Shown: positions 1,808 to 22,174, counted from the first letter of the stretch. The stretch is DNA of 64,000 nucleotides from a virus (IMGVR_UViG_3300030099_007533:39547-103546); one strand, 5' to 3'. Program-made: numbers and translations. Notes: generated by a model from the letters alone, not told the origin.

Positions 1808-2310
1808 GTATCAAAACCAGCTTTGGCAATCACCCAACTATCTGCCTTATCATAACTGTCTGGGCGTGGATTACCTTTGTTGGTATATTCTACTACAAAC
1901 TGTGGCTCGTTGTCAAGCACAAATTGAAGTACAACTGGCTTGGCTTTAGTACCTCTTGGTACTTTTATCCCACAAATTCGCCTAGCTGAGACCGCAGCAA
2001 GGTACTCTGGTTCTAATTTAAATAAAGTAAAACAAATCCAACTAATCACGCCATTAAAGCGTGAAAGCGTTGAAAGAGTTTGTGCAGATGAAAATCCCGA
2101 TCTAAACGACTGTAAAGACTGTTCTATGTATATCTCTTGAACCGCGTAGGATTGTCTCAGAGAGATTAATTTCTCCTCAACCACCCCTACTTTGGTAAAA
2201 AAGTTTTTGTACTTTCTTGTGTCAATAGAGCCGTATTCTACAAGATTTCCACTGCCATCAAGGACTGTGTATCCTGTGATGCTGGTTGAAATATCTAATC
2301 CTAATATCAT
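1780..2310 (-). CDS. RuvC-like Holliday junction resolvase
   Basis: ILGLDISTSITGY, IYIEQ and DKADS acidic catalytic motifs. Confidence 0.85.
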   Translation of the reverse strand: MILGLDISTSITGYTVLDGSGNLVEYGSIDTRKYKNFFTKVGVVEEKLISLRQSYAVQEIYIEQSLQSFRSGFSSAQTLSTLSRFNGVISWICFTLFKLEPEYLAAVSARRICGIKVPRGTKAKPVVLQFVLDNEPQFVVEYTNKGNPRPDSYDKADSWVIAKAGFDTWQQKNKKS

Positions 2311-3650
2311 AAATCTATTTTTAACTTAAAGGTGTAATCTGTGCTATTTGTTTTAGTCACAGGTTTTGCTAATTTAGCAGTTCCTATAAGTATATCATTA
2401 TCATCATAAATATTAACCTTTGTTATGAAAGTTTGATCCTGATATGATGCAGAATAGTTTGCAAACGAGCTTGAGATTGTATTTTTAACCTCTATATATT
2501 CTTTTTCACGATAAACCGTAGAACCCGTTTCTGCAACAGCAATTTCTTGATAAGTTGATCCTGTTGCAAAGTTTCTATCCACATATGTTAAATTATTGCT
2601 CCAGTTAAATTCATTTTTATCTGCGTGTGCAAACATTGTAAGAGTTGGAATAGTGTTTGTGCCCTTAAATTTCAATTCATATGATGAAGATACTGGCGCA
2701 TAGCTTTGGGAAAAAACAGAGTCGGTCGGCTGAATGAAAGATTCATATGCTCCAAAATGTGCCCATTTTGGGTTATCTTTCCAAGCGTCTTGAAGTGTCA
2801 CTGCGCCGGGTCCTTTTATCGTTGTGGATGTACCTGTAACCGGACATAAATATCCATCTTGCACTGAACTGTCAAGACTATAATTACCTGTTAATAGTAA
2901 AATGCCCTCTTCGTATAAAACTGTTCCGACCACCCCATTAGTTCTTGGTCCGAGTGTCTCAATTATTTCACCATTTCTTTTGTTATCTTTAGCTGTTCCA
3001 ATAAGTGTCCCAGTAACATAAAAATTAAGTTCTAACGAACCGGGCTTAATTCTTTGAGCTTTAAATATTTCTGGAAATGAAAATAGCGCCATGTATTTTT
3101 GGCGTGGGGATGCCGCCCCCTCTATACTTGCTGCATTTGGAACTATATCTCCCAATATATAAAATTTCTTAAAATCAAATTTGGGACTACGCACCCTACC
3201 ATAGTCCATTACATTTTCAATAGCTATGAATTTGTGTACTGTATTCCTACTCGAAACTCCATCAATAATATCAAATCCGTTATAAGGGGCTGAACCATTT
3301 CCTATCAATCTCTCTCTGGTGACAAAAGACGTGAACGGGTATGCACCTGTAATTTGTGTGCCTGCGGCGAGTTCCAAATACTCATTAGTCTCTATTGTCC
3401 CAGTGACGTTATTGAAAACAAAATCATTTAAATTTTCACCTTTAATAATGAAAGGTTGAATTAAGTCACTCCCTTGAATCCTGTCAACATTAAGCTCGTA
3501 TAAAGAAATCGAACCACTTTGGACTCTATTGCCATCAGTTTGTCTGTTGTTAATATAAGATTGGTTAAAATAATATTTAAGAGTGTTTTGCGGATATGTT
3601 TTTACTGTATTGTAAAATATATCATCTGGTCCAAATTTCTTTTTTGGCAT
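2307..3650 (-). CDS. Virion structural protein (baseplate/tail-collar-like C-terminus)
   Basis: C-terminus FITKVNIYDDNDILIGTAKLAKPVTK...FKLKIDL is paralogous to that of 3662-4738; last gene of the tail module. Confidence 0.65.
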   Translation of the reverse strand: MPKKKFGPDDIFYNTVKTYPQNTLKYYFNQSYINNRQTDGNRVQSGSISLYELNVDRIQGSDLIQPFIIKGENLNDFVFNNVTGTIETNEYLELAAGTQITGAYPFTSFVTRERLIGNGSAPYNGFDIIDGVSSRNTVHKFIAIENVMDYGRVRSPKFDFKKFYILGDIVPNAASIEGAASPRQKYMALFSFPEIFKAQRIKPGSLELNFYVTGTLIGTAKDNKRNGEIIETLGPRTNGVVGTVLYEEGILLLTGNYSLDSSVQDGYLCPVTGTSTTIKGPGAVTLQDAWKDNPKWAHFGAYESFIQPTDSVFSQSYAPVSSSYELKFKGTNTIPTLTMFAHADKNEFNWSNNLTYVDRNFATGSTYQEIAVAETGSTVYREKEYIEVKNTISSSFANYSASYQDQTFITKVNIYDDNDILIGTAKLAKPVTKTNSTDYTFKLKIDL

Positions 3651-3661
3651 TTTTTCATCTC

Positions 3662-4738
3662 TTAGTAGTCCAATCTTACACGAATTGTCAAATCATTTGA
3701 AGGAGTTTTCTTAATTGGTTCGCTCAACTTAGCTGTTGCGACCAAAGCTCCATCGGCGGCATATAAGCCAACCGCTGTGATATAAGAAATAGGAGAATTC
3801 TCTGGATTGTTCTCTTTAACTCTAATTTGACTTGCTGATAAGTATGTGGGGTTAGAACTAAAATTAAATTCACCCGCGCCCGCCCGACAGAAGTACACTG
3901 TTGAATTCAACTCTGTTGAGTTGTTAAACTCAATATTATTAATTCTTTTTCTTAGAGCATCAGCAAGCTGTTCAATTGTACCTGATTCAATACTGCCGGT
4001 ATAGGTCAAATGTTGGGGTGAAGTTGTTGAGGATTTCACCCACTTAATGTGATCCGCGCCGCCTGTTTGGGGTTTGCCAGCAAGATTTATGGTTGCAGAT
4101 AAGTCAAGAACAGCAACACCAGCTTGATAATAAATTATTCCCAATGCATCGTTGTTCTCAGCCGCCGAGTCTGTTGTAGAAGAACCACTTCTTAAAATAC
4201 CATATTCGCCTGCTGGTGAGTTAGTATCATTAAAAGAAGATGTCGCGCCATAATCACCAATATGAAAAAGGTGGAGGTGCGGATTATAGTAATCGGTGCC
4301 AAGACCAAGCGTAAGTCTAAAAGTTCCTTTTTGGATTTCATCCTTACCAAGAAGTCTTGCAAGATTAATAAAACCGGGAGTTTGAATAACGGTTGCTGTC
4401 TCATCATATGAACCAGACACCTTAAAGGGGGTAACCGAAGCAGTCACGTCATAGCCGTATAATACCTGAGCCATTTCATGATATATATTTGCTTTTTCAA
4501 CGCTCTGGGATGCAACAGTCTGACTATTGATACCATATGTAATATCAAAAATATGGTTTGCAGAAGAACTTAAAAAGGGATAATCGTAGACAGATTGAAA
4601 CATTCCATGGGAATAATTTTTAATGTTGTCATCATTATAAGTTCCTGAGAGCAAACTTCCAGTAACTGGAATTGTCTCATGTAACAAAGTTTTAAGTGTT
4701 GTTATTTCTTCATTTTTAAGTGGTTTTAATGTGCTCAT
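3662..4738 (-). CDS. Virion structural protein (baseplate/tail-collar-like C-terminus)
   Basis: C-terminus YITAVGLYAADGALVATAKLSEPIKK...RVRLDY; Ser/Thr/Gly-rich; tail-module context. Confidence 0.65.
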   Translation of the reverse strand: MSTLKPLKNEEITTLKTLLHETIPVTGSLLSGTYNDDNIKNYSHGMFQSVYDYPFLSSSANHIFDITYGINSQTVASQSVEKANIYHEMAQVLYGYDVTASVTPFKVSGSYDETATVIQTPGFINLARLLGKDEIQKGTFRLTLGLGTDYYNPHLHLFHIGDYGATSSFNDTNSPAGEYGILRSGSSTTDSAAENNDALGIIYYQAGVAVLDLSATINLAGKPQTGGADHIKWVKSSTTSPQHLTYTGSIESGTIEQLADALRKRINNIEFNNSTELNSTVYFCRAGAGEFNFSSNPTYLSASQIRVKENNPENSPISYITAVGLYAADGALVATAKLSEPIKKTPSNDLTIRVRLDY

Positions 4739-4750
4739 TATTATTTCCTA

Positions 4751-8333: not shown

Positions 8334-8335
8334 TA

Positions 8336-10039: not shown

Positions 10040-10050
10040 ATTCTACTTCC

Positions 10051-10986
10051 CTACACATCAACACATTCATCGTCTACTTTTTCAATTTCCACTTCCTCGT
10101 CTACAAAAGTGAATCCCTCTCTTGCCGCTTCCACTTCCTCATCAGTTGAAATGTTAAAATACCACCCAACAGAAGTTGGATTTAAATTTTCCTCTTCAAA
10201 GTAAAGCTGATCTAAGCTGGCTGTTTGAAAATTGTCTGTGTATCGGTATTTAAACACTTCTAATGTAAAATCCTCTTTACCACTTAAAACATTTTTTTCT
10301 TCGACTGATATTGTAAAATCATTAAACGCTTTATTAAATAAAATAAACGTGTTGTCCCCAGACTTTCTGAAAAGATCTTTAAAATCTATATTTAAATTTT
10401 CTTGAACATCAGAATAGTAAACTGATTCTGTATCATTTTTATCAAACGAAAATTGATTGTAGTCATAACTACAACTTAAAGATAACTGTGGAATTTTTTC
10501 GAAAGATGGTCCAATAGTCCCACCGTGAATGTCGGATGAAGTGAAAGATATTTCTGTTGAGCCTGTGAAAAGAGTTCCGTCGTCAGCAAGTACTTCCCAC
10601 GCAGGTTTATAGTTTGAATATGGAGTAAAAGTCCCCAAACCCTCTATTTGTTTATTTTCTTTTTTAAAGGTGGGAAGGACTGTTATTCCAACCCCTTTTA
10701 AAAACTCATCAAGGAATAATGATAAAGCTTCCTCTTGTAAAACTTGATAGTTTTTTACGCCCTGCTTGGCTGTCGGGGATCTAAGAGTTAATTTATCTTT
10801 TATTCTTGTTTTTATTTCGTTCTGTTCTTCCACAGAGCCAGACCTTATATATTGCAAGTCATAAACAACGTCGTCATCCATAAATTCGTAGTGAGTTGGC
10901 TTAAACCTACCTTGAGATAAAAGCTGACGACCCAATCGTGTTAATTGAACTTCTATTACTTCCTCTTTTTTGTTAAAAAACGTCAT
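10051..10986 (-). CDS. Virion structural protein; N-terminus paralogous to 4751-5719
   Basis: EVQLTRLGRQLLSQGRFKPTHYEFMDDDVVYD aligns with DAVLTDIGRQRLA..F...F.FGDDEINY. Confidence 0.6.
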   Translation of the reverse strand: MTFFNKKEEVIEVQLTRLGRQLLSQGRFKPTHYEFMDDDVVYDLQYIRSGSVEEQNEIKTRIKDKLTLRSPTAKQGVKNYQVLQEEALSLFLDEFLKGVGITVLPTFKKENKQIEGLGTFTPYSNYKPAWEVLADDGTLFTGSTEISFTSSDIHGGTIGPSFEKIPQLSLSCSYDYNQFSFDKNDTESVYYSDVQENLNIDFKDLFRKSGDNTFILFNKAFNDFTISVEEKNVLSGKEDFTLEVFKYRYTDNFQTASLDQLYFEEENLNPTSVGWYFNISTDEEVEAAREGFTFVDEEVEIEKVDDECVDV

Positions 10987-10999
10987 AATTTTTCTCTAT

Positions 11000-11008: not shown

Positions 11009-11012
11009 TGTC

Positions 11013-14000
11013 CTAACATTTCCCTTGAAGTTCCTGCAATCGCCTCAAAGCTTCTGGATCCATAGCATCTCCAACCTCGTTCTGAATTTCTGATAAGATT
11101 TGCAGTTCCGCAAGTTCCTCGTCTGTGCATAACTCTGGGTCACCTGCCTCAACGGATTCGGGGTCTGGACTGTCTGCGTCTATAGCGCCAAAGTCCACTG
11201 CTTCAAAACTGGCAACTGCCGCTGTTGCAAAAGTTGTTGCTGGTGTAGAAACCACTGCCGCAGTTCTTTCTGGCTCAGGAGAAGTAAATTCTGGCTCCCG
11301 CTCTGGCTCTCTTTCTGGCTCAGGCTCTGGTGAGGTAAATGGTATGAAAGTTTCTGGTAGTGGAACAAATTCAAAGCTCTCTGGCTGTTCTGTCACAGGC
11401 TCTGGTCTTGGGCATTTTCTTAATAATTCTTGCAGTCTGTTGGATTCTCTTGGAGTTAGCGTACCCCCAATAGGACCACCCAATGCGCTCTGAGTAGGCT
11501 GGCTTTTATTTATGAGAAGCTGCAACTCTCTTGCGTCCTCGTCAGAACAAACACTTGTTTCTACTTGGCTTGTTGGTTGTAGTTGCGTATTTACTTCTAT
11601 GGGCTGTCCCAAATTAAGTGCTTTAGCCAGTGCGTCTTCTGGTTTGATATATCCTCCACCAGCAATCTGTTTAATTCTATTTGGATTATCGTTCCGCACT
11701 TCAAATTCTACGTCCATCTTTCCAAGCTCAACTAAGCTAAATTGATCGTATGGATAGTTGTAAGAAAAGCGGGATGCACCTGATGTTTTATAGGCGCGGA
11801 CCCCTGTTTTATTTTCAAGCATCTTGTAATAATCGTAGTTTGCCCTCTTTTTGACTTTAAACATTTTCCAGCGTATGTCGTTTGGAATTGAATTTAGACC
11901 ATTATATCTAAAAATTGTTGGTGATAATAATTCTCCATCAACAATCGGGTGTTCTAAGACTACTTTTTGTTTTTGTGCTTTGGTAGCTATTTCTGGCATC
12001 ACTCCTTGCCAGATATTTGCCAAGTCTTGTTTAGTTAAATCACTTGAGAATTCAAAGAAATACATGGCAAAGGGCGGATAAGCTGGTTCAAATGATTGCT
12101 TTGTTCTAAGAATTTGTCTTGCTTCGTCTCTCGTATGAACAAAATCATAGACGGGAGGCAAAACATACTTATCCATTTTCGTGATCATGTTAGAAATTGA
12201 ATCTTCTGTTACTTGGTTATTTCTTACTAAACTATATCTATTTTCAAAAATGTTTATTGGCAATTCAAAAAATTTCTCTTCGCCAGTTTTACAGTCAACA
12301 AAGAAGGGGACCGCACAAACTGCTTCTTCAATCACTTGTCGCGGCTTAATTTTTCCAAACGCTTTAGCCGTTGGTTCAAACCCAACCGCCTGTATTAACG
12401 AACCTGTTAGAGCAGGATTGGTGGTCGTAGTTTCATCCAAACTTATATGAACACGCTTTCTATCAACTGCTGATGCAAGTTCGCCATATTGATGCCACAT
12501 ACCTTGTGTTGCTTCGCCGGGACCAAAAGTTGTAGCGGTGACGTTTACAAAATTTAAAACTGGGCATTCCCATTTAGATCTAATTGTCCATCTATCCTCT
12601 TCTCCTAATTCAAACATGTCAATACTTGCAGTTATTTTCATAAAGTCTGCGCCAGCCACAGCCTCTGATAAATAAGAGGTGTGCTCTATTGTTGAATTGG
12701 CGACAATATCTGCCAAACTAAATGTTGTCTGCCCTCTTCTGTTTGTTGTGGATAGAAGGTTGGTTGGGTCAAACACTAAAGTTGCTTTTGTAAAACCGCC
12801 GCGTGTTACGCCAACGTTTTGTATATTTTTTACAGGACTTGCAGTTGCCTGTGTATAAGAGCCCGGTGGTGCGTGATGATTATATGGGAACGGTCCAAAC
12901 GCTGCTGGGTTACCATATTGTATAAACTCGGATGGGCTTACTATTGTAATATCCATTGCAAATTTTTTGACTTCTGAGCCAACGCTAAGTGGACCTTCAA
13001 ACTGCCATTGTTCTTCAGGTGAAGATTTAAAATTTGTTAAATCATCCAAGAAAAACTCTGGTACCTCAGCAAAAAAGTTGTGTGCCATCAATTCATATAT
13101 GCCGTCACTTCTATTGACAGAACCACTACTATCAATTTGTGTCGATCCGCTGTTAACTATGTGCTCAATCCTACTAACATATTCGCTTGGAGTAATGATC
13201 GCTTCAAATGGGGCAATTGAATTATAGGCTTCTGTCATGCTGGCTGACGGATTTTGTGCTGTAGCGGATTTGTATGGGAACTCGACTGCAAAACCAGCTT
13301 TAATTGAATTTAATCCAATCCCCGGTGCCCAGAACGGCATTAATGTAGTCTCTTGCGAAGCATTGCTCCCCAAAGGAACTGGATCTCCTGAGAAGGCTCC
13401 CGGCAAAGCATATTCTGAATTTGCATGAGAGGATGAAAACTGTTGGGCTAATTGAATAACCCTTTGTTGCGGATAAAATCCTGTCTTTGGAAGTAATTTT
13501 TTAGTTGTATCAAATGTCAGTCTAATTGCAGTTGGTTCGCCATAAAAATCTTTTAATTGTTCAAGGTAAGTTATTTTTTCAGTTTTTCCATAACGCTCAG
13601 AAAAAGAATTGCCAGATAGAGTATCGCTTCCAGTTAAAGAAAAACCATATACCTCTTCTTTAAGAAAGTCACCATCATTTTCACTAATGATCGTGTGAAT
13701 AAAGTCTGAGATGGCAAATTCTGGAATTATTGTCTGATCCTGTCCGATTAGTCTTGTATCTTCTGCAAATTTGTCATAACTTGTGTAAAAAGCTCCAGTC
13801 CCTGCTTGAGCTTGAACTAAATTGTTTGGACGACCCGACCCAGTTGACTCAAACATGTATCTTGCATTTGCCTCTCCATGGCGTTGTGGATCGCCATTTG
13901 AGCCAGTATTTCTCATCAATTCGCCTGATTTCTCTTCTTGAAAAGAACCAGATATACTAACGTCCATGGACCACTGACTGCCATTTATTGTGTAGCCCTG

Positions 14001-17000
14001 TGAGTTAACAAATGTGCTTGCAGTTCGAACCTCTAAATCATCGCTTATCCAGAAAGATACATAGTCTAAACGCTCTCTTGTAGATTCCTTGTAAACATTT
14101 TCATCTTTCGGGTAAACAGTTTCTTTATAATTTATAATATTAAACTTTTGGCTAAACTTATAGAAATCTGTGTTATAGATGTTGACTGCCGGTGTGTCTA
14201 ATTCCAGACTGTAATCTTTAATCTCATTAGACGGGGCTTCATAAACATTGGCATAATAACAAAGATCATTGCCAAGTTCATATTGAATTGTGCCGGTTCC
14301 CTCATCAATAAACTGTTGAACTGGCTTAAATTTAGAAGTGACGGGCGTCTGATTAACAGAGAACTGTGCGCCAAATCTCTCTAATCTCTGTCGGTCATCA
14401 CTTAGCACATCAATTTGATTTCTATATATGTTTTTTCTCTTGTATTCTCTTCCAACTCTATGTTCGCCACCTCTTATTTGTTTAAATGTTGGGTGTTGGT
14501 ATGGACCATTATTGCTCAACAATAGACCGTTTAAAACGTAGGGTGCTGTCGCTGCTGAAAATTCCGGCAAATTATAATAATCACCGGGTCCATCAGAAGT
14601 AGAGGCGGTTGTAAATAAGTTTTTATCCAAAATGACATCGCCAACAATAACGTAATTTGTCCCATTAAATGCAACAGAAACTGGTATATTGCTACCCACA
14701 CCATACTCAATATGACCTTCAGCAATGTATCTTATGTTATCTGAGAAAATATATCCATAGATAGGGGAATAATCACTTGACGAAATATCGGGATTGAAAT
14801 CGCTCGTATTTTGATGGAAAGCTGGGTTTACATTCGTCCCGGTTAACAGACCTGATGTGGAATGCAATGTAGCGTTATTTGGGTATCCTGTTTTTCTTGC
14901 AATCCACGAACTTGCCACCCAACGATATTGCACGTCTGTTCTTGGTATGCCATGACCAACATAAGAATTATCAAAAATAGGCTGAGGTGTATCTAAGGTA
15001 TCTGATAACCTATACACTCCGTTTCTTTGAGTCTTGTAGAAAGCTCCTGATGGCTGTAATAGAACAGAATCATAGCCTCCACTTAAAGTGTGGCGTGTTA
15101 ACAACTCATTGTTGTCTAAGCGAACAATAAGATTCCTATAATTTAGATTGTTGTATGCCGAATATTCTGCTGCCTCCACATCAAGATATGCTAAAGAATT
15201 TACTTCTGGTCCACCGGGGGCGCTAAACCTATTAACAATAACAAACTTATTGCTACCTGTGTGTTCTCTATCTAAGATTCTAAAGTCTTTAAAGAAAAAT
15301 AATCCATCTTCATCATAGCTTAAACTACTTGAAGCATTAACCGAGCCAGTAAAACCATTAGATTTAACGTAGTATCTATTATTTTCTCGACGCCCACTTG
15401 TCTGAATTATTTCATAATCTTTAAAATAATTTGACCCGCTAATATTTTTAATGTTTACAGGTCTTTTAGCTGCTGTTTCTCTTAGCCAAAAACCAAGGGG
15501 TCTATCACTCAAATATTCAGGCTCTGGATTGGATGAAGCGCTGACCATACGAGGGTTGTTAAGATGTATGGTTGTTGGGGTGCTCTCAACTATGTTTAGC
15601 TGGTATCCCTCCTTTCTGATGCGCGGATCAGTTTCTAATAAATTGCCATGGCGATACATATAACCGCCAACATTTTCCTCTGTAAATGGACCTTGAAGAT
15701 TACTGCCCTCGACCCCATTAAAGTCTCTATGTTTTGTCTCAATTTTTATTTCTAAGTTCCTATCAAACAAATATTGTTGATAAGCAGATGTAACTTTAGA
15801 CGCGCTTAAAACATCAAACGGCAAGTATTTTTGTCCAGACAACACTCTTTCGTTTGTTTGGTCTATAATACTTAAAGGAGTTATCCTATTGTCATCATAT
15901 GTTTTATCTGGTGCTTCTTCATAATCATAATATGGTTTCCCATGAACATTTGTGACAGTGGATCTCACATGCATAGAAATTCCATCTTGTCCAACTGTTC
16001 CACTTGACACCCTAAATGAATTTGGAAAATAATTTTTTCTATTTTCACCAGCGAAGCCAACATTCGTTCCAATCGCTCTTGTAGCATCGGCTCTAAAAAC
16101 ATATGGTGTTTGACGGGATCCAGTAACTACTTGGAATTGATTTATTCTTGTTTGTGCTCTATTAACATCAACACTATCAACACCACTCGCTAAAAACTCG
16201 CCGGGACCTCTTTCAACTCTGGTGTTGTACCAAAAAGTTGCATCGCCTTGCCTCATGGTTGAGACTTCATTTGGCGCTCTAATTTCTTGAGTTATATAAG
16301 GTAATTCAGAGGCTTTTGGCTTCGGTCTAAGACTTGTTCTTTCTCGACGGCGTTTTGCCTTTCTAATTTCCTCTGGTAATTTCTTAGAAATGTTTATATT
16401 ATTACCAGCCGGAATGGTTAAATCGAGGTCGGGTGATGCGGGGATTGTTAAACTGGGATCATTACAATTTTCTCCCTTGCAGGGATTGTCCTCTGGGGGC
16501 TTTATAAAGTCTTCTTTTTTATATTCTTTAAGGGAAATATATTTATGAATATATTTGCTTCTTTCCAATATATGGCTTTCAACTATATTTCTAACTTTGT
16601 CAGAAGTTTTTGAAGACGCCGGAATTAAGTTTGATATCACGCTTTCTAAAGCGCCATCAAGCCACTTATATAAATTAACAAATTTATCTAAATCAGGATC
16701 ATTTTTAATATTTTCAAAAAATAATTCTCTTAGTTTTTCCAAGTTTTTGTAATTTGGTCTGTACATGTTGACCGGGTTGCCAATCAAACTATTGAAATCA
16801 CTAATTGACGCAAAGAAGCCCAACATTTCTCTTGAGATTGTATCGTACAAGCTTGTTTCAACTGCAAAATAATATTTGCTTGGGCGGCTCTCTCTTGTAA
16901 ACAAAGAATCATCACCTTCCCTGATTTCAACTAAATCTGAACTGTATAAATTCTCTGGCAACTGTTGTTTTGCAGCATCGACAAATAAGAAGTCTACGAC

Positions 17001-19847
17001 TTTAGTTGAATTAGGGGCAACACCTGCACCTTGACCACTATAGTTCGGACCAACAAATTTAGAGTAATTGCCCGCGCCATATCTATCATCTACTGTTATG
17101 CTTGAACCAGATGTTATATCCTGCACTAAAAATTTACCAGTTGTGCCAGAACCAGTAATATTTTCATAATTCCAGTGCAGACCCAAGGTTTGTATTCTTG
17201 GAATATAGTTTATTTTTTCATCACCTTCAAATATAAAAGAATTGCGCTGAGGTGTTAAACGACCAAAGCCGCTTACATCTCTCGCATGGTTACTTAATTC
17301 ATTGTTTGTCAGGTAATCAAACCACACTCTTGATGAAACAAGCCTTGTGTTCGATTTGTAATTTAATGATCCTGTTATGTTTTCTCTATCAGCGCCAACA
17401 TACATTCTCTTATTAGAGCCTGTTAAAAATTGACCTATCCCGTCACTTATATTCACCTCTGATGAGACAGTAAATTCATTAAGCTTATAACCAGCAACAT
17501 AATTTACACCATAGAACTCTAAATTTAATATATCGGATTGAATAACCTCTTTTGCATACGGATAACCTTTTGGTTTAGTTCTAACTGCAAACGTCCAGTT
17601 TGTGTTATCATACACATCCTCATAGAAAGATGATGTTAAAGAACCAATAGACCCAATGTTAGTTTCTAATACAAATTGAGTTTTGTTAATACTGTTGGTA
17701 TCGGCGTAGACTTTAAAATACACATCTCCGACCGGAATTGTCGTCTGAGTTGTGTCAGCACTTGCGCTGTGGACTCCAAACAAAGAAGCCCTTTCTAACT
17801 TGTCCAAGTAGCCATTTGGAAAATTTACAAATTTTGGAAATTGAAATTGATTTTCAAAGGTTAATGGAATATACGCATTTACTGACGATGACAAGTATCC
17901 GCTATCGCCTGTCTCGGCAGCACTTTTTGATGGATCCGCAAATTGATAGACTACAACTTCTCTATTTTGACCGTCGTTGTAACCAGATAAATCAACCACA
18001 TTTCTTTTAACTAATGATGTTTCGTAGTTTTCCCTAATTTCGTACTCTTGATTATCTGCGTACATGTTCAAGCGAACAAGTTCATCATCAACCCCAAAGC
18101 ATCTAAATAAGTTTCTAAATGATTTTTCAGTTCCTTTTGATTTATTAATGTAATTTAAGTTGTTAAAGATATTTTGAAAAATTAAATTTTTTAAATTAAA
18201 AATCTTATCTTCGTATAAACGTTTTTCATCTTTAAAATATATTTCCTCAATAACGCCGGGGTCAATAAATACATCTGGAATATCAAATCCATAAGAAATT
18301 AAGTTTCTTTTTGAAAATGGATTGGGTTTAGCATTTGAGCCGCTAACATAAGAACCATCTTGTAGTTGTGAAATCGCCGTAATCTGTGCGTGAAGCGTGT
18401 CTAAGTAAGTAGACATAATCTGCACCATCTTACGAATTAAAAGCCCGTTAGCGGCATCGTCGTCCCTTATCCACTGTGGCATCATATTGTACATATTGCC
18501 AAGGTTTTCAGCATCATAATTCGAGCCAGAGGCTTGTTTATCCGCCCTGTATGCTACCACATCTGGGTTCGTGGAATATATAATTGGTGAAGCAACCTCA
18601 GTGGCGACTCCAGATTCCGTAATTGCACTACCCGTTGGACGCGATGTGTGACCGTCTGTATTATATCCAACCCAGACAGCATCAGTTAGCCTCCCTGAAT
18701 AGTCCAGTACGATGCTATCAACTGATGAATCTCCCGTATTACCTTCATTAAATTTATAATATAGAGATAATTCCAGCGGGCTGTCTTCGTTCACCTTCGC
18801 AGTATCAGTATTGCCGCCGCCGCCAACGTCGAAAAAATAATTGATGCCTATCTGTTTAGCATCTCTATTCGTCTTCCAAAGTCTTACCTCGTCAATTTCG
18901 CCAAGTAAGCCGCCTTCGCCCAAATATCCAGATAGGGATGAGGCTGCAACAGTCGCGTCTAACGTACCTGTTAGAAGTAAAACGGGGCTTGCTTTAGTTT
19001 GATATTTCTTTTCTTGAAAATTACCATCAACATAAATTTCTCCAACATACCCTGCCGAGTTGGTTGAAAAAGTTAGTGCATAATGGTGCCATGTATTGTC
19101 TGCTATATTAGATAAGTTAGTTTCAAAATTGTAAGAAAATTCTGTGTTTGTTAACGCCTTGGAAAAGGAAGTTAAAATCTTTGTGGAGGCAGTAACATCC
19201 GTGGTGATTTGAAAAAGGTCATTTTCGGTGTTACTAATCGAGAAAATAACCTCATTTTTGGTGTCAGTGGCATCGGGGAATGTGCCTTTTTTTAACCAAA
19301 ACTCAACTGTTACACCATCCGAGAAGTCCAACTCTACGCTGCCAACTTGATTGGAACCGGTGTTGTAAACTAATTTGTTTGAATAATTATCAGTTAGAAT
19401 ATAGTGACCGTTTCCCTCTGAGCCGCCGAAAGTGAATGTTGTACTACCAACTGTGAACGGCGTCGAAAGAGACCCATCATATATGGAATCTGTAAAATCA
19501 GCATAACCAGTTGTTCTTGGATAATTTTTATCAAATTCGTGTTTTTGGATTGCAGGCAAACCATTACGATATTTCAATCTCTCTGCAAGTGATCCATCAT
19601 ATGGATAAGATTGAACAATACTGTCTACTAAATCAACATAATAATCTTCTGCCAAGCCATATTTTACAAAGTTGGATGGATCTTGAAAATCTAATTCTGG
19701 TATAAAATTTAATTTGTCTTCTGTATATTCTTTAATATAGTTGATAGACTCAACATTTTGCCCAGCGTCATTAATTGTTGATTTTTCTTGACCGCGTATT
19801 TTTGCTTCTTGCGACTTTTGCTTATTGAAAAAACTTTTTGTACCCAT
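11013..19847 (-). CDS. Giant 2944-aa baseplate/tail protein with LamG (concanavalin-like) domain
   Basis: TVEFWLK...WHHYALT...IYVDG...GEIDEVRLW LamG motifs; NKSKGTEKSFRNLFRCFG resembles the KGT wedge/tail-protein-I motif; acidic Pro-rich C-terminal tail. Confidence 0.75.
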   Translation of the reverse strand: MGTKSFFNKQKSQEAKIRGQEKSTINDAGQNVESINYIKEYTEDKLNFIPELDFQDPSNFVKYGLAEDYYVDLVDSIVQSYPYDGSLAERLKYRNGLPAIQKHEFDKNYPRTTGYADFTDSIYDGSLSTPFTVGSTTFTFGGSEGNGHYILTDNYSNKLVYNTGSNQVGSVELDFSDGVTVEFWLKKGTFPDATDTKNEVIFSISNTENDLFQITTDVTASTKILTSFSKALTNTEFSYNFETNLSNIADNTWHHYALTFSTNSAGYVGEIYVDGNFQEKKYQTKASPVLLLTGTLDATVAASSLSGYLGEGGLLGEIDEVRLWKTNRDAKQIGINYFFDVGGGGNTDTAKVNEDSPLELSLYYKFNEGNTGDSSVDSIVLDYSGRLTDAVWVGYNTDGHTSRPTGSAITESGVATEVASPIIYSTNPDVVAYRADKQASGSNYDAENLGNMYNMMPQWIRDDDAANGLLIRKMVQIMSTYLDTLHAQITAISQLQDGSYVSGSNAKPNPFSKRNLISYGFDIPDVFIDPGVIEEIYFKDEKRLYEDKIFNLKNLIFQNIFNNLNYINKSKGTEKSFRNLFRCFGVDDELVRLNMYADNQEYEIRENYETSLVKRNVVDLSGYNDGQNREVVVYQFADPSKSAAETGDSGYLSSSVNAYIPLTFENQFQFPKFVNFPNGYLDKLERASLFGVHSASADTTQTTIPVGDVYFKVYADTNSINKTQFVLETNIGSIGSLTSSFYEDVYDNTNWTFAVRTKPKGYPYAKEVIQSDILNLEFYGVNYVAGYKLNEFTVSSEVNISDGIGQFLTGSNKRMYVGADRENITGSLNYKSNTRLVSSRVWFDYLTNNELSNHARDVSGFGRLTPQRNSFIFEGDEKINYIPRIQTLGLHWNYENITGSGTTGKFLVQDITSGSSITVDDRYGAGNYSKFVGPNYSGQGAGVAPNSTKVVDFLFVDAAKQQLPENLYSSDLVEIREGDDSLFTRESRPSKYYFAVETSLYDTISREMLGFFASISDFNSLIGNPVNMYRPNYKNLEKLRELFFENIKNDPDLDKFVNLYKWLDGALESVISNLIPASSKTSDKVRNIVESHILERSKYIHKYISLKEYKKEDFIKPPEDNPCKGENCNDPSLTIPASPDLDLTIPAGNNINISKKLPEEIRKAKRRRERTSLRPKPKASELPYITQEIRAPNEVSTMRQGDATFWYNTRVERGPGEFLASGVDSVDVNRAQTRINQFQVVTGSRQTPYVFRADATRAIGTNVGFAGENRKNYFPNSFRVSSGTVGQDGISMHVRSTVTNVHGKPYYDYEEAPDKTYDDNRITPLSIIDQTNERVLSGQKYLPFDVLSASKVTSAYQQYLFDRNLEIKIETKHRDFNGVEGSNLQGPFTEENVGGYMYRHGNLLETDPRIRKEGYQLNIVESTPTTIHLNNPRMVSASSNPEPEYLSDRPLGFWLRETAAKRPVNIKNISGSNYFKDYEIIQTSGRRENNRYYVKSNGFTGSVNASSSLSYDEDGLFFFKDFRILDREHTGSNKFVIVNRFSAPGGPEVNSLAYLDVEAAEYSAYNNLNYRNLIVRLDNNELLTRHTLSGGYDSVLLQPSGAFYKTQRNGVYRLSDTLDTPQPIFDNSYVGHGIPRTDVQYRWVASSWIARKTGYPNNATLHSTSGLLTGTNVNPAFHQNTSDFNPDISSSDYSPIYGYIFSDNIRYIAEGHIEYGVGSNIPVSVAFNGTNYVIVGDVILDKNLFTTASTSDGPGDYYNLPEFSAATAPYVLNGLLLSNNGPYQHPTFKQIRGGEHRVGREYKRKNIYRNQIDVLSDDRQRLERFGAQFSVNQTPVTSKFKPVQQFIDEGTGTIQYELGNDLCYYANVYEAPSNEIKDYSLELDTPAVNIYNTDFYKFSQKFNIINYKETVYPKDENVYKESTRERLDYVSFWISDDLEVRTASTFVNSQGYTINGSQWSMDVSISGSFQEEKSGELMRNTGSNGDPQRHGEANARYMFESTGSGRPNNLVQAQAGTGAFYTSYDKFAEDTRLIGQDQTIIPEFAISDFIHTIISENDGDFLKEEVYGFSLTGSDTLSGNSFSERYGKTEKITYLEQLKDFYGEPTAIRLTFDTTKKLLPKTGFYPQQRVIQLAQQFSSSHANSEYALPGAFSGDPVPLGSNASQETTLMPFWAPGIGLNSIKAGFAVEFPYKSATAQNPSASMTEAYNSIAPFEAIITPSEYVSRIEHIVNSGSTQIDSSGSVNRSDGIYELMAHNFFAEVPEFFLDDLTNFKSSPEEQWQFEGPLSVGSEVKKFAMDITIVSPSEFIQYGNPAAFGPFPYNHHAPPGSYTQATASPVKNIQNVGVTRGGFTKATLVFDPTNLLSTTNRRGQTTFSLADIVANSTIEHTSYLSEAVAGADFMKITASIDMFELGEEDRWTIRSKWECPVLNFVNVTATTFGPGEATQGMWHQYGELASAVDRKRVHISLDETTTTNPALTGSLIQAVGFEPTAKAFGKIKPRQVIEEAVCAVPFFVDCKTGEEKFFELPINIFENRYSLVRNNQVTEDSISNMITKMDKYVLPPVYDFVHTRDEARQILRTKQSFEPAYPPFAMYFFEFSSDLTKQDLANIWQGVMPEIATKAQKQKVVLEHPIVDGELLSPTIFRYNGLNSIPNDIRWKMFKVKKRANYDYYKMLENKTGVRAYKTSGASRFSYNYPYDQFSLVELGKMDVEFEVRNDNPNRIKQIAGGGYIKPEDALAKALNLGQPIEVNTQLQPTSQVETSVCSDEDARELQLLINKSQPTQSALGGPIGGTLTPRESNRLQELLRKCPRPEPVTEQPESFEFVPLPETFIPFTSPEPEPEREPEREPEFTSPEPERTAAVVSTPATTFATAAVASFEAVDFGAIDADSPDPESVEAGDPELCTDEELAELQILSEIQNEVGDAMDPEALRRLQELQGKC
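11016..11549 (-). repeat. Duplicated Cys-bounded helical module flanking a PE/EPER low-complexity linker
   Basis: CSDEDARELQLL...RLQELLRKC (11412-11549) and CTDEELAELQIL...RLQELQGKC (11016-11129); between them FTSPEPEPEREPEREPEFTSPEPER, with ~12-bp DNA repeats near 11270-11335. Confidence 0.75.
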
Positions 19848-19853
19848 ATCTTT

Positions 19854-19862
19854 ATAATTATT
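19854..19862 (-). promoter_or_regulatory. Candidate phage late promoter AATAATTAT (variant)
   Basis: Intergenic, 6 nt before ATG 19847; one mismatch to consensus. Confidence 0.45.
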
Positions 19863-19879
19863 TTGCTATTAAATTTTCA

Positions 19880-22174
19880 TTAACCCGGTAGGTCGTTTTC
19901 ATCTATTACTCTAAATTTAAATTTGTCCTTGAGTTCATAGTAATTACCTGCATCATTAATTAAAAAGCATATCTGGTATGAAAAATCTGGTTCAAATATA
20001 CTCATATCTAAATCAAAATAATTGCCAGCAGAGTCGTAAGAAAGCTGAGTATATGACCCCTCTCCTGAACCTGTTCCATAATTAATTACAATCTCTTCAT
20101 CGACACGTCTTTGTACCTTATAATACATTTTCTCAATTATTGTTGGCTCAACCACTGTTGAAGCGACGGTATAAACTGTTGCTTCAAAATTTTTATTTTG
20201 AACAAACACTCTAAAATTAGCGACATCAGTTTTACCATATTCTGCTTGTAAATTTGTTATATTTACCTTATAAGAATTAATTGGATAGGAAGTTTGTGTA
20301 TCAAAAGTGTTTACAGACACGGCAGAGGCAGTTAAATATTCTGTTGAGCCGCTGTGCCAAACGGGGTATAGTTCTGTTACATTAGAGTTGGCATAAGCAA
20401 ACGATGCAGAATAAATACCTGTTGAAACTTTACTACCTGTTGCGTGTGTGTCATTGTTCGCAACAACGCCACCCCCCGCTGGGAGTTGTAGTTTATTGCC
20501 CGCTGGGGCGGCGCTGGAGCCCGAATAAACACTTATAAATATTTTATTCTCTACTCCAAGACCCGGTATGTCTTGCAGTTGTCCTCTAACATAATTGTAC
20601 AGATAGAGAGTGTTTAAATTATCTGCTGCGGGCACTCTTGAAGAGCTTAAATAAAAGTTGGAAGCGTCGTCAGTTCTGTTATCGTTCCAACGAGCCTCAA
20701 TAACCGGTCTCTTTAAAAAGTATTGACTATCTCTCGCAAAGAATTTTTTTGTGTAATATGATCTATTAGCAGCTTCTAAACTGGATGATAGAAATACACC
20801 AAAACCAAAGCTGGCAGTATTGTTGTTAAGCCACTCTTCAACCTGATGTGTCACATCCACTTCTAAGTCTTCTAATCCAGTTGCAAAAGTTTGTGAATAC
20901 ACTGTAGTCTGGCTACCTGTGCTAAAACGCCCACCTTCATCAAGCCAATATAAAGCAGTGTTTACAGCATTTGCGACACCATTGCCAGCAAAATCTGTTG
21001 TAGAAAAATTAGAGGTTGCTAATCCATTGCCTGTTCCATTATGACCATTACCAGATCGGTCTCTTATTGTTGATGCTGTATCAACATCTATAACTTTGTT
21101 GGCATCTGTTTCTATTTGCCACCAAGCGACCAACTTTTTTGTAGCATCTGTCGTATACGCTTTCGTTTTCACTAAATTGTTTGGAACGCCCTCATTATAA
21201 ATTTCAAGGATCTGAGTTGAGCTTAACTCTTTGTTCCAAACAGATATTTCATCTATTTTTCCATCAAAAAAGTTAGAATCTACAGTCATTGCACCAATTT
21301 GCACTGGAGCAGTGGTATTTGCCATTGCAACATAACTTGCATCAGTGCCTAAAGTTAAAGTTTGTGACACTCCATTAATATAGAGTTTCATTCCAGAGGT
21401 AGCTGCTGAACCGCCGCGACCATCGTATGTTGCTGCAACATGATACCACCTCCCTGTTGCAATTGAACTTGCGGGGGATTGTGCGATCATACGAGGGGTG
21501 CTGCCAACAGTCTCATCTTCAAACTCAAGATATAGTTGTCCCGTCGATAACACAAAAAATTGCCATTCGCGCTGACCTGACGCACGCTTAGTAATAATTG
21601 GTCTGTGGTCCGAGAGACTATCAATATTGATCCATGCGCTTAGTGAAAAAGGGTTATCATTCGCGCCATCGCCATAAGAAAATGCATTGTTGTCTGCCAC
21701 TTGAACATATTCATCAGAACCATTCAATTCTAATGAACAATCACTGAAAGATCCTGCTTTGCGAGTTAGCCAAGTTGAGCCTTGACCGCCATTACCAATG
21801 CCGGGGTCACTATAATCTTCCATATCCAGACCATCGCCTTCATCCCAAGATTGAGAGATGGCTGCAATCGAAAGAGTGAAATTTGTTGGTGTTGTTGACG
21901 TATGTTCGGCATTAAACATACGAAGATAGAAATCAACAGAACCGGATTCTGGGATATTTCCATCATTTCTTGATGCGGAAAGGGTATCAAGGTCAAATTC
22001 GATTAAGGCTCTTGATAATTCCCCAGAGGATGTTGTCGCTTGTGCGTATAGACTAAACACTTCTAACACATCTGACTGCCCCATATTTGCAGTTGTACCA
22101 CGAGTAGTTAAGTTCTCCTTAAAAGCATTAGTAATTGTATTGTCTTTTGTTGCTTTAAACCTTCTAATTGCCAT
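19880..22174 (-). CDS. Virion protein with inserted LamG domain
   Basis: LamG motifs LNGSDEYVQV, FSLSAWI, GRWYHVAATYDG, LYINGV and FFDGKIDEISVWN sit inside a scaffold carrying SRALIEFDL...QSWDEG...LEVDVTHQVEEWL. Confidence 0.75.
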   Translation of the reverse strand: MAIRRFKATKDNTITNAFKENLTTRGTTANMGQSDVLEVFSLYAQATTSSGELSRALIEFDLDTLSASRNDGNIPESGSVDFYLRMFNAEHTSTTPTNFTLSIAAISQSWDEGDGLDMEDYSDPGIGNGGQGSTWLTRKAGSFSDCSLELNGSDEYVQVADNNAFSYGDGANDNPFSLSAWINIDSLSDHRPIITKRASGQREWQFFVLSTGQLYLEFEDETVGSTPRMIAQSPASSIATGRWYHVAATYDGRGGSAATSGMKLYINGVSQTLTLGTDASYVAMANTTAPVQIGAMTVDSNFFDGKIDEISVWNKELSSTQILEIYNEGVPNNLVKTKAYTTDATKKLVAWWQIETDANKVIDVDTASTIRDRSGNGHNGTGNGLATSNFSTTDFAGNGVANAVNTALYWLDEGGRFSTGSQTTVYSQTFATGLEDLEVDVTHQVEEWLNNNTASFGFGVFLSSSLEAANRSYYTKKFFARDSQYFLKRPVIEARWNDNRTDDASNFYLSSSRVPAADNLNTLYLYNYVRGQLQDIPGLGVENKIFISVYSGSSAAPAGNKLQLPAGGGVVANNDTHATGSKVSTGIYSASFAYANSNVTELYPVWHSGSTEYLTASAVSVNTFDTQTSYPINSYKVNITNLQAEYGKTDVANFRVFVQNKNFEATVYTVASTVVEPTIIEKMYYKVQRRVDEEIVINYGTGSGEGSYTQLSYDSAGNYFDLDMSIFEPDFSYQICFLINDAGNYYELKDKFKFRVIDENDLPG

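What the first reader, a model, noticed from the sequence alone, without database searches (positions are those of the whole stretch)
2307..22174. [S/T]-G-S tripeptide strongly enriched in five virion proteins and absent from neighbours: candidate glycosylation sequon
Manual counts of [S/T]GS: ~19 in the 2944-aa protein (7 as [S/T]GSN), 6 in the 764-aa, 4 in the 358-aa, 3 in the 447-aa and 2 in the 311-aa protein, about 34 in 4824 aa. I found none in the 850-, 567-, 322-, 598-, 589- and 671-aa proteins of the same module (~3600 aa). Composition estimated by eye suggests only 2-3 by chance in the giant protein. The related [S/T]AS and TGT are also common in the same proteins. The motifs are scattered in unrelated contexts rather than in a tandem repeat. 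Inference: they arose independently under selection as modification sites. Established precedents for short O-glycosylation motifs are proteoglycan Ser-Gly and Bacteroidetes D-[S/T]-[A/I/L/V/M/T].
Basis: partly seen in the sequence, partly recalled or inferred. Interest (0 to 1): 0.85.

Follow-up and report, generated by a model that had tools for sequence, protein, structure and literature searches.

The report
Ser/Thr-Gly-Ser tag on phage tail proteins
The outward-facing tail proteins of this uncultured marine Far-T4 phage and its relatives carry the ordered tripeptide Ser/Thr-Gly-Ser about seven times too often, and this excess travels with one conserved phage sugar-transferase gene, so it is probably where a phage-made sugar coat is attached, though no chemistry shows this yet.

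Summary
[S/T]GS occurs 19, 6, 4, 3 and 2 times in the 2944-, 764-, 358-, 447- and 311-aa proteins: 34 observed against 5.2 expected (P about 4e-17). It is absent from the six neighbours. A sixth carrier, the tail sheath (9 against 1.1), lies outside the window.

An unbiased scan of all tripeptides ranks TGS first in the proteome. The residue order matters: TGS occurs 26 times against 2-10 for its permutations. Codons vary and flanks are free.

The excess holds in 75 sheath orthologs, in 120 homologs of the 358-aa protein, in four whole relatives, and in cultured Flavobacterium phage immuto, Microcystis phage Mel-JY01 and Rhodothermus phage RM378. It is absent or unspecific in T4, HTVC008M and a syntenic 484-kb phage that lacks the 428-aa glycosyltransferase.

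Sites turn over while their density is kept. The sugar-synthesis island is hypervariable, but the GT pair at its edge is a core gene, present in 15 of 15 long family contigs. Immuto DNA carries no sugar (published LC-MS).

Best reading (about 0.5): a sequon for cytoplasmic virion O-glycosylation. This is unproven, and a lineage-specific structural turn is the main rival. The scan has already noted this motif on at least 29 other genomes.

The parts
11013..19847 (-). 2944-aa giant tail/baseplate protein with 19 [S/T]GS sites (2.8 expected). It has a ConA-like/Laminin_G_3 domain at residues 165-333.
   Evidence: Orthologs at 57-71% identity carry 16-21 sites against 3-4 expected.
19880..22174 (-). 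764-aa tail protein with a Laminin_G_3 lectin-like domain; 6 sites (1.2 expected).
   Evidence: Orthologs carry 6-7 sites against 0.7-1.4 expected.
3662..4738 (-). 358-aa tail-module protein of a very large family (more than 7700 homologs); 4 sites (0.6 expected).
   Evidence: In 120 homologs there are 405 sites against 75 expected. Hot columns alternate TGS/TAS/TGT/TSS. The AF2 model has pLDDT 66.8.
2307..3650 (-). 447-aa tail-module protein that shares a C-terminal domain with the 358-aa protein; 3 sites (0.4 expected).
   Evidence: Orthologs: G001 has 4 against 0.54 and G006 has 4 against 0.36.
10051..10986 (-). 311-aa tail-module protein; 2 sites (0.2 expected).
   Evidence: Four orthologs carry 6 sites against 0.5 expected.
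52820..54106 (-). 428-aa GT-B glycosyltransferase (PF00534). It is a core gene of the family and the best candidate for the enzyme that reads the motif.
   Evidence: It is 74% identical in G001 and 50% in G002, with more than 5000 homologs. It is present in 12 of 12 long family contigs and in immuto, Mel-JY01 and RM378, but not in LR756508.1. Profile hits to solved structures: chlorovirus B736L (3oy2, E = 4e-5) and SdgB (E = 1.7e-3).
54103..55374 (-). 423-aa GT4 glycosyltransferase that overlaps the 428-aa gene by 4 nt. It is conserved, and it is also present in the relative that lacks the motif excess.
51966..52823 (-). 285-aa conserved protein with no Pfam hit. In relatives it forms the N-terminal part of multi-GT2 proteins, and its atlas neighbours are GT1-like.
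31956..51969 (-). Hypervariable sugar island. It encodes nucleotide-sugar dehydratases, epimerases, DegT aminotransferases, a formyltransferase, methyltransferases, a PIG-L deacetylase, and GT2 and GT1-like transferases. All are soluble.
   Evidence: Almost none has an ortholog in G001 or G002, which carry other sugar genes at the same place.
22174..23970 (-). 598-aa gp6-like baseplate wedge protein. It serves as an internal control with no motif.
   Evidence: phrog_219. It has 0 sites, and 8 orthologs have 0 against 3.6 expected.

Best explanation
[S/T]-G-S, more loosely [S/T]-[G/A/S]-[S/T], is a short acceptor tag on the outward-facing tail proteins of Far-T4 phages: the sheath insert domains, the giant baseplate protein, lectin-domain proteins and fibres.

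The proposed mechanism is as follows. During late infection a soluble phage GT-B enzyme, the 428-aa protein, puts a first sugar on a Ser or Thr of the tag in the cytoplasm. It probably works with the adjacent 423-aa GT4 and the 285-aa GT-like protein. The transferases and sugar-nucleotide enzymes of the neighbouring hypervariable island then extend the sugar into a strain-specific glycan. Selection keeps the number of tags per protein high but lets their positions drift.

Shown here: the motif statistics, their restriction to certain virion proteins, their conservation and turnover, the core status of the GT pair, the variability of the island, and the absence of phage-encoded export machinery.

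Inferred: that the tag is modified at all, which residue is modified, which enzyme acts first, and what the glycan is for (shielding, stability or adhesion).
For: 1. **Size and specificity of the excess.** It is 6.6- to 6.8-fold and order-specific, with free flanks and varied codons. D/N-G-S and [S/T]-G-D/N are not raised, so this is not a general turn preference.

2. **Restriction to exposed tail parts.** In the sheath all sites lie in residues 131-647, the variable insert domains. None lies in the conserved core at 648-986. Wedge, portal, terminase, tape measure and enzymes have none.

3. **Density kept while positions turn over**. Hot columns alternate between near-motif variants.

4. **The same excess in other genomes.** Whole relatives G001, G002, G015 and G018 show it. 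So do immuto (SGS 63 against 15, TGS 48 against 15), Mel-JY01 and RM378. These phages infect hosts of three phyla, and all carry the 428-aa GT ortholog.

5. **Negative controls.**
   - T4 tail and fibre proteins have 7 against 8.8.
   - HTVC008M reaches only 1.4-fold against permuted tripeptides.
   - LR756508.1 has a syntenic tail module and the GT4 but no 428-aa GT. Its two sheaths have 0 sites and TGS and SGS are not among its top tripeptides.

6. **Genome-wide ratio.** Observed over expected is 2.05-2.99 in GT-positive genomes and 0.72-1.62 in GT-negative ones.

7. **The GT pair is core while the island between it and the virion genes is replaced wholesale**. This is the layout expected of a fixed initiating enzyme with a variable glycan.

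8. **No polytopic membrane protein** is found in the island or in two complete relatives.

9. **Immuto DNA carries no sugar.** It shows canonical dA, dC and dT, with dG replaced by fdPreQ1 and no glycosyl nucleoside (PMC10516641).

10. **Nearest solved relatives of the 428-aa GT.** They are a chlorovirus GT (B736L) and SdgB, a cytoplasmic protein-Ser O-GlcNAc transferase with a minimal DSD acceptor. Both matches are weak.
Against: - There is no chemical evidence of any modification in any member.
- The association with the GT rests on few independent lineages and is confounded by shared ancestry. Within the family the GT never varies.
- In immuto the motif has hydrophobic flanks (I/V/F at -1, F/L at +3). 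It also sits in fibre repeats such as SGSFxGxFxGDGSxLTG, which looks structural.
- At one hot column SGS alternates with DGN and DGD, the classic turn residues.
- Motif residues are only slightly better conserved than other Gly, Ser or Thr of the same regions.
- The secondary-structure context is not significantly loop-biased.
- The major capsid protein is not enriched (1 against 0.74).
- The RM378 sheath is not enriched, although RM378 has the GT.
- The remaining proteome shows no avoidance of the motif.
- LR756508.1 still has one small enriched protein (3 against 0.34).
- The similarity to SdgB and B736L lies in the donor-binding half and says nothing about the acceptor.
Confidence: 0.5

Rival explanations
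1. The motif is a lineage-specific structural feature. [S/T]-G-S would be the preferred tight turn or strand cap of the beta-rich insert, lectin-like and fibre domains of this clade. It would be inherited and re-invented because it folds well. The glycosyltransferases would act on something else, such as the host envelope or a small molecule.
For: - Immuto sites have hydrophobic residues at -1 and +3 and occur in fibre repeats.
- SGS alternates with DGN and DGD at one column.
- Several sites sit at strand ends in the AF2 models, and two are conserved next to strands, for example TGS before the LAAxWY strand.
- HTVC008M fibre proteins show a 2-fold excess against composition without this GT.
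- LR756508.1 keeps 3 SGS in its 358-aa homolog.
Against: - T4 sheath, baseplate and fibres (6722 aa of comparable folds) show no excess.
- The generic turn tripeptides D/N-G-S and [S/T]-G-D/N are not raised.
- The own-clade sites have no flank pattern.
- Only about a quarter to a third of sites are shared between orthologs at 40-60% identity, yet density is kept. A fold requirement would conserve positions.
- The HTVC008M excess disappears against permuted tripeptides.
- Sheaths of the syntenic relative without the GT have none.
Confidence: 0.28
2. The tripeptide is a tag read by another factor. Candidates are a different modification (phosphorylation or acylation), an assembly chaperone, or a decoration protein that docks on exposed Ser/Thr-Gly-Ser loops. 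The co-occurrence with the GT would then be only shared ancestry.
For: The GT never varies within the family, so the link cannot be tested there.
Against: - No kinase, acyltransferase or other candidate is conserved next to the tail genes in the parts examined.
- The one relative that lacks the 428-aa GT also lacks the excess in its sheaths.
- A large soluble sugar pathway with no other evident acceptor sits beside the virion genes.
Confidence: 0.1
3. The excess is a by-product of composition or chance. Ser-, Thr- and Gly-rich proteins would throw up the tripeptide often, and the reader picked the winner after the fact.
For: The carrier proteins are richer in S, T and G (8.7, 8.0 and 7.5%) than the rest (6.7, 5.4 and 5.8%) and have higher GC.
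Against: - Per-protein shuffles, shuffles with Gly fixed and permuted-tripeptide controls all reject it.
- TGS ranks first of about 8000 tripeptides in an unbiased scan here. It ranks in the top three or four in G001, G002, G015 and G018 and in the top eight in immuto, Mel-JY01 and RM378.
Confidence: 0.02

Closest known systems
Virion glycosylation of mycobacteriophages by phage-encoded glycosyltransferases (Freeman et al. 2023, Cell Host Microbe). The paper is not held here. It is known only from its citation in PMC12619734 and from my own knowledge.
   Same: Phage-encoded soluble glycosyltransferases are thought to O-glycosylate the phage's own virion proteins in the cytoplasm before assembly.
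   Different: In mycobacteriophages the glycans sit at the C-termini of the capsid and tail-tube subunits. Here the candidate sites are dispersed tripeptides in the sheath insert domains and in baseplate and fibre proteins, and the capsid is not enriched. The phages are T4-like myoviruses of aquatic bacteria. A 20-kb variable sugar-synthesis island accompanies the GTs. Nothing is shown chemically.
Chlorovirus (PBCV-1 type) capsid glycosylation by virus-encoded cytoplasmic enzymes at atypical sequons, and the chlorovirus GT-B protein B736L (PDB 3oy2)
   Same: The virus makes its own sugars and transferases and does not use the host secretory route. B736L is the best solved-structure match of the 428-aa GT family profile (E = 4e-5).
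   Different: Chlorovirus glycans are N-linked to Asn of the major capsid protein of a eukaryotic virus (own knowledge and PMC9614988, listed). Here the candidate acceptor is Ser or Thr on tail proteins of a bacteriophage. The acceptor of B736L is unknown.
SdgB/SdgA and GtfA/GtfB: cytoplasmic GT-B (GT4) protein-Ser O-GlcNAc transferases of Gram-positive adhesins
   Same: These are soluble GT4-type enzymes that read a minimal tripeptide, DSD for SdgB (PMC8561734). They act in pairs. The SdgB sequence is the second-best solved-structure match (E = 1.7e-3).
   Different: Their substrates are long disordered Ser-Asp or Ser-rich repeats. They carry a DUF1975 insert domain that Pfam does not find here. 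The similarity is weak and confined to the donor-binding half.
General O-glycosylation of Bacteroidota at D-[S/T]-[A/I/L/V/M/T]
   Same: A three-residue sequon marks many unrelated proteins. The predicted hosts of Far-T4 phages are marine Bacteroidota (PMC7198788).
   Different: That motif is not enriched in the carrier proteins (20 against 17). That system assembles the glycan on a lipid carrier and transfers it in the periplasm, whereas no phage membrane protein of that kind exists here. Virion proteins assemble in the cytoplasm.
Host-surface (O-antigen) modification proposed for the glycosyltransferases in the host-recognition cluster of pelagimyophages and cyanomyophages (PMC7029224)
   Same: Large T4-like marine phages carry glycosyltransferases and deoxy-sugar genes among the tail-fibre genes.
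   Different: That paper assigns the enzymes to the host O-chain. Here the core GT is shared by phages of three host phyla and co-occurs with a motif on the phage's own tail proteins, which points to a phage acceptor. HTVC008M lacks this GT and shows no order-specific excess.

Membership tests
Phage-encoded virion glycosylation (mycobacteriophage type) | The phage encodes its own glycosyltransferases | tested here: met
   At least 7 GT-like genes lie at window 41061-55374. The 428-aa and 423-aa pair is core to the family.
Phage-encoded virion glycosylation (mycobacteriophage type) | Glycans are covalently attached to virion proteins | not testable with these tools
   This needs mass spectrometry or glycoprotein staining of virions. 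Cultured relatives exist: immuto, Mel-JY01 and RM378.
Phage-encoded virion glycosylation (mycobacteriophage type) | Sites lie at the C-termini of the capsid and tail-tube subunits | tested here: not met
   The motif is dispersed in sheath inserts and baseplate and fibre proteins. The capsid protein has 1 against 0.74 and the tube-like proteins have 0.
Bacteroidota general O-glycosylation | Sequon D-[S/T]-[A/I/L/V/M/T] | tested here: not met
   20 observed against 17.0 expected in the five proteins.
Bacteroidota general O-glycosylation | Lipid-linked glycan, flippase and periplasmic transfer | tested here: not met
   No polytopic membrane protein is found in the island or in two complete relatives. 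Use of host machinery cannot be excluded.
SdgB/GtfA-type protein-Ser O-GlcNAc transferases | GT-B fold of the GT4 type | tested here: met
   PF00534 hits. Profile matches to GT-B structures including SdgB.
SdgB/GtfA-type protein-Ser O-GlcNAc transferases | DUF1975 insert domain, and score above the family cut-off | tested here: not met
   Pfam finds no DUF1975. The NCBIfam SdgB model scores 16 bits against a cut-off of 800.
SdgB/GtfA-type protein-Ser O-GlcNAc transferases | The acceptor is a long disordered Ser-rich repeat | tested here: not met
   The sites are single tripeptides scattered in folded domains, with no tandem repeat.
Proteoglycan Ser-Gly xylosylation | Ser-Gly with acidic flanks | tested here: not met
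   The acidic fraction in the flanks is 0.105 against a background of 0.124. The enriched order is [S/T]-G-S, not S-G-x-G.
DNA glycosylation by phage GTs (T4 type) | Glycosylated bases in virion DNA | tested here: not met
   This was tested only through the literature for a relative. Immuto DNA holds dA, dC, dT and fdPreQ1 and no glycosyl nucleoside (PMC10516641). It was not tested for this phage itself.
Far-T4 phages (RM378-like T4 superfamily) | T4-type sheath, portal, capsid and terminase, with closest cultured relatives RM378, immuto and Mel-JY01 | tested here: met
   PHROG hits. tblastn against phage records. The sheath model matches T4 gp18-type sheaths. Literature on Far-T4.

The most novel reading that the evidence does not exclude
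Far-T4 phages are a globally abundant aquatic group. They may carry a self-contained, sequon-directed cytoplasmic O-glycosylation system. In this reading one core GT-B enzyme reads [S/T]-G-S on exposed tail proteins, and a hypervariable cassette of sugar-synthesis and transferase genes then writes a strain-specific glycan. The phage tails would thus have their own glycan serotypes. The GT clusters that the literature assigns to host O-antigen modification would instead dress the virion.
Probability: 0.4. Interest if true: 0.85.

Novelty: new variant of a known kind. Interest (0 to 1): 0.7.

Why it matters
If the tag is a real glycosylation site, it would be the first sequon described for a phage-encoded protein glycosylation system. 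It would also be the first case in T4-like phages.

It would give a function to the large glycosyltransferase and rare-sugar clusters that sit among the tail genes of abundant marine and freshwater myoviruses. The literature currently reads these clusters as host O-antigen modification (PMC7029224).

A three-residue tag with a soluble transferase would also be a handy tool for glyco-engineering proteins in the bacterial cytoplasm.

The idea is directly testable because three cultured phages (immuto, Mel-JY01 and RM378) carry both the motif and the enzyme. Within this scan it is not new: the same motif has been noted on at least 29 other genomes.

Tried and rejected
- **DNA-level motif.** Rejected because the codons at the sites vary.
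- **Internal repeats or shared domains as the source.** BLAST of the six proteins against each other finds only a shared C-terminal domain (447-aa and 358-aa proteins) and a shared LamG domain (giant and 764-aa proteins). It finds no repeats.
- **General turn propensity.** Rejected because D/N-G-S and [S/T]-G-D/N are not raised.
- **Avoidance of the motif in non-target proteins.** I looked for this as a signature of an enzyme-read tag and found nothing consistent. Ratios are 0.64-2.13 in GT-positive and 0.56-1.35 in GT-negative genomes.
- **Stronger positional conservation of motif residues.** The effect is only slight: Gly 0.60 against 0.48, and Ser/Thr 0.53 against 0.46.
- **Structure mapping.** The sheath model (pLDDT 79.7) and the 358-aa model (pLDDT 66.8) give secondary structure only. 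Seven of 9 sheath sites have Gly in coil, which is not significant, and exposure could not be computed.
- **Curated family assignment of the GTs.** All NCBIfam hits fall far below their cut-offs.
- **Search for family members without the GT.** All 12 long contigs have it, so there is no natural knock-out inside the family. Five fragmentary contigs were uninformative.
- **The Freeman 2023 paper** is not held.
- **tblastn of the giant protein against phage records** gave nothing.

Full report
**What the window is.** The window is the last 64 kb of a 103.5-kb single-contig virus record. All long ORFs lie on the minus strand.
- PHROG and Pfam searches find a T4-type tail sheath, tube-region proteins, a portal, the large terminase, a gp23-type capsid protein, a gp6-like baseplate wedge and a replication module.
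- The closest cultured relatives by tblastn are Microcystis phage Mel-JY01, Flavobacterium phage immuto and Rhodothermus phage RM378. This places the phage in the uncultivated Far-T4 group, which is widespread in aquatic samples and predicted to infect marine Bacteroidota (PMC7198788).
- CheckV estimates for relatives imply a full genome of about 180-190 kb. The record is therefore a fragment.

| Protein | [S/T]GS observed | Expected from 2000 shuffles |
|---|---|---|
| 2944 aa | 19 (7 as [S/T]GSN) | 2.8 |
| 764 aa | 6 | 1.2 |
| 358 aa | 4 | 0.6 |
| 447 aa | 3 | 0.4 |
| 311 aa | 2 | 0.2 |

- Pooled, the five proteins have 34 against 5.16, P = 3.9e-17. With Gly positions fixed, no shuffle of the giant protein reaches 19.
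- To remove the bias of choosing the motif after seeing it, I scanned all tripeptides over the whole record. TGS ranks first, 30 against 8.3, P = 5e-9.
- To remove composition altogether, I compared permutations of the same residues. In the carrier proteins TGS occurs 26 times against 8, 2, 10, 5 and 6 for TSG, GTS, GST, STG and SGT. SGS occurs 17 times against 4 and 3 for SSG and GSS. In the rest of the proteome TGS and SGS are, if anything, the rarest orders.
- Codons at the sites vary.
- Sixty-one percent of all GS dipeptides in these proteins follow Ser or Thr, against 8% elsewhere. Positions -6 to -1 and +3 to +9 show no strong preference.
- [S/T]AS is also raised 3.3-fold and [S/T]GT 2.3-fold. 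D/N-G-S and [S/T]-G-D/N are not raised.
- BLAST finds no internal repeats.
- A sixth carrier, the 986-aa tail sheath, lies outside the window and has 9 against 1.14. The capsid protein has 1 against 0.74.

**Where the sites lie.**
- In an alignment of 62 sheath orthologs every motif column falls in reference residues 131-647, the variable insert domains. None falls in the conserved C-terminal core.
- The AF2 sheath model (pLDDT 79.7) matches T4-type sheaths. In T4 gp18 the inserted domains form the outer surface of the tail. That statement rests on established knowledge and was not computed here.
- In the model, the central Gly of 7 of 9 sites lies in coil, usually just after or before a strand. 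One lies in a strand and one at a helix end.
- The 358-aa model is of moderate quality (pLDDT 66.8) and gives the same picture.
- The wedge, tape-measure-like, portal, terminase and enzyme proteins carry no excess.

**Conservation and turnover.** The excess is a family trait.

| Protein set | Observed | Expected |
|---|---|---|
| 75 sheath orthologs (42-82% identity) | 449 | 93 |
| Four giant-protein orthologs | 75 | 14 |
| 120 homologs of the 358-aa protein (family > 7700) | 405 | 75 |
| 8 wedge orthologs | 0 | 3.6 |

- In four whole relatives (G001, G002 and the complete G015 and G018) TGS is again among the top three or four tripeptides proteome-wide. Most carriers there are orthologs of the same tail proteins, and a few have no ortholog in this record.
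- The sites themselves move. Sheath pairs at 40-60% identity each keep about six sites but share only about 1.4 columns.
- Motif residues are only slightly better conserved than other Gly, Ser or Thr of the same region.
- At recurrent hot columns the variants are mostly near-motif: TGT, TAS, TSS, TGA and SGT. At one column they are DGN and DGD.
- Density kept while positions drift is what selection on the number of tags predicts. It is not what an inherited structural element predicts. Alignment error in the variable inserts may exaggerate the turnover.

**The sugar genes.**
- Window 31956-55374 encodes a GDP-mannose 4,6-dehydratase, several SDR epimerases or reductases, two DegT aminotransferases, a formyltransferase, methyltransferases, a PIG-L deacetylase and at least seven GT-like proteins.
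- None has more than one weak hydrophobic segment. The two complete relatives have no polytopic membrane protein of the flippase, polymerase or ligase kind.
- Comparison with G001 and G002 splits the region in two. The sugar-synthesis part (31956-51969) has almost no orthologs and is replaced by other pathways. In G001 this is an acetamidino/diacetamido-sugar set.
- The genes at the far edge are conserved. These are the 285-aa protein, the 428-aa GT-B enzyme (74% and 50% identity) and the 423-aa GT4 (75% and 51%).
- The 428-aa GT has more than 5000 homologs at structural-protein levels of identity. It is present in 12 of 12 long IMG/VR contigs that hold the 358-aa homolog, including all four complete ones.

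**Does the motif follow the enzyme?** Among 50,697 phage records the 428-aa GT hits immuto, Mel-JY01 and RM378 (21.8-32% identity, 88-99% of the query). It also hits the GT1 domain of seven Streptomyces phage GTs weakly (E = 3e-4 to 9e-4). The first three phages are the same cultured phages that share the 358-aa tail protein, and in each the GT sits beside the GT4 gene with a nuclease-type gene just upstream.

I ran the same unbiased scan on each.

| Genome | 428-aa GT | Result |
|---|---|---|
| immuto | present | SGS 63 against 15 (4e-20) and TGS 48 against 15 (3e-11) are the top two tripeptides, concentrated in sheath, spikes and fibres |
| Mel-JY01 | present | Tail proteins 11 against 1.4, 9 against 0.6, 13 against 2.5; sheath 4 against 0.95 |
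| RM378 (GT pair, no sugar island) | present | SGS and TGS in the top seven; a cluster of enriched proteins at 64.8-76 kb; its sheath is not enriched |
| T4 sheath, baseplate, fibres (6722 aa) | absent | 7 against 8.8 |
| HTVC008M | absent | 2-fold against composition, but only 1.4-fold against permuted tripeptides |
| LR756508.1 | absent | Two sheaths with 0 sites; 764-like protein with 0; TGS and SGS absent from its top list; its 358-aa homolog has 3 against 0.34 |

- LR756508.1 is the most informative control. This 484-kb uncultured phage has a syntenic tail module and an ortholog of the 423-aa GT4 next to the nuclease, but no 428-aa GT.
- On a uniform whole-genome measure, observed over expected is 2.05-2.99 in six GT-positive genomes and 0.72-1.62 in three GT-negative ones.
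- The association is real but rests on few independent lineages and is confounded by ancestry.

**What the enzyme's acceptor could be.**
- DNA is unlikely. Published LC-UV-MS/MS of immuto DNA shows canonical dA, dC and dT, with complete replacement of dG by fdPreQ1 and no glycosyl nucleoside (PMC10516641).
- A host-specific envelope glycan is hard to square with a core enzyme shared by phages of Bacteroidota, Cyanobacteria and Rhodothermus. The published reading of such clusters in pelagimyophages is host O-chain modification (PMC7029224).
- The family profile of the 428-aa GT matches best the chlorovirus GT B736L (E = 4e-5). Its next match is SdgB, a cytoplasmic protein-Ser O-GlcNAc transferase with a minimal DSD acceptor (E = 1.7e-3).
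- These matches lie in the donor-binding half and fall far below any curated cut-off. They are leads and not assignments.

**Verdict.**
- The claim that the sites arose independently under selection is supported.
- The claim that they are glycosylation sites is the best available explanation (about 0.5) but is unproven.
- The main rival is a clade-specific structural turn (about 0.28). It is helped by the hydrophobic flanks and fibre repeats in immuto and by the DGN/DGD alternation.
- The prediction that other clades would carry a different motif following their GT set failed. The motif is constant and follows the conserved 428-aa GT, while the variable genes presumably set the glycan.
- The same motif had already been reported by this scan on at least 29 other genomes, with similar verdicts. 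I read those notes only after reaching my own reading. They are not independent evidence.

**Limits.**
- ORFs were called mechanically (longest ORFs, table 11).
- Expectations are composition-based or permutation-based.
- The high and low protein sets were defined by the motif itself.
- Only secondary structure, not coordinates, was available from the models.

Noticed in passing
L136:20433-21749 (LR756508.1 305432-306748): The 484-kb uncultured phage keeps the PD-(D/E)XK nuclease plus GT4 pair but lacks the 428-aa GT and any adjacent sugar island. The GT4 must therefore have a role of its own, and it is not sufficient for the motif excess.
   Followed up: partly
L137/L139/L138 (RM378 whole genome): Besides SGS and TGS, the tripeptides TVS, TLS, TTS, TFS and TIS are all strongly over-represented proteome-wide in RM378. 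This is a general T-x-S pattern not seen in the marine relatives. It may reflect beta-strand usage in a thermophile or a looser tag.
   Followed up: no
window 39497-40405: A formyltransferase (PF00551 plus C-terminal domain) sits inside the sugar island. Immuto uses a PF00551 enzyme (DpdN) to formylate preQ1 in DNA (PMC10516641). This one could therefore be either a sugar N-formyltransferase or a base-modification enzyme.
   Followed up: no
window 11013-19847, residues about 2813-2880 of the 2944-aa protein: An acidic, proline-rich low-complexity stretch. It gives a weak Trypan_PARP hit, and EPE and PEP are among the enriched tripeptides. It is probably a flexible linker near the C-terminus.
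   Followed up: no
window 5781-10039 against 10051-22174: The motif-free 850- and 567-aa genes have 30-32% GC and diverge fast (22-36% identity to relatives). The motif-bearing genes beside them have 36-40% GC. The low-GC pair looks like exchangeable receptor-binding cassettes.
   Followed up: no
window 49427-50155 and 51966-52823; L092:12729-15164; L104:16911-18524: The separate 242-aa GT2 and 285-aa proteins of this phage correspond to parts of single fused proteins in relatives. These fusions are 811 aa with two GT2 domains and 537 aa with one. Some homologs of the 428-aa GT are likewise fused to a GT2 domain (663-698 aa).
   Followed up: partly
L131:635-3052 (Mel-JY01): A Ser/Gly/Thr low-complexity stretch gives huge SGT, TSG and GTS counts. 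The long plus-strand ORF I called there overlaps a CDS that the record annotates on the minus strand (739-2298), so it may be spurious. I excluded it from the statistics.
   Followed up: partly
window 61353-63995: An 880-aa protein with DUF6267 and a cytidylyltransferase-like domain. An 81%-identical ortholog is present in G001. Immuto annotates a 907-aa NadR-like NMN adenylyltransferase of similar length, whose homology I did not test.
   Followed up: no
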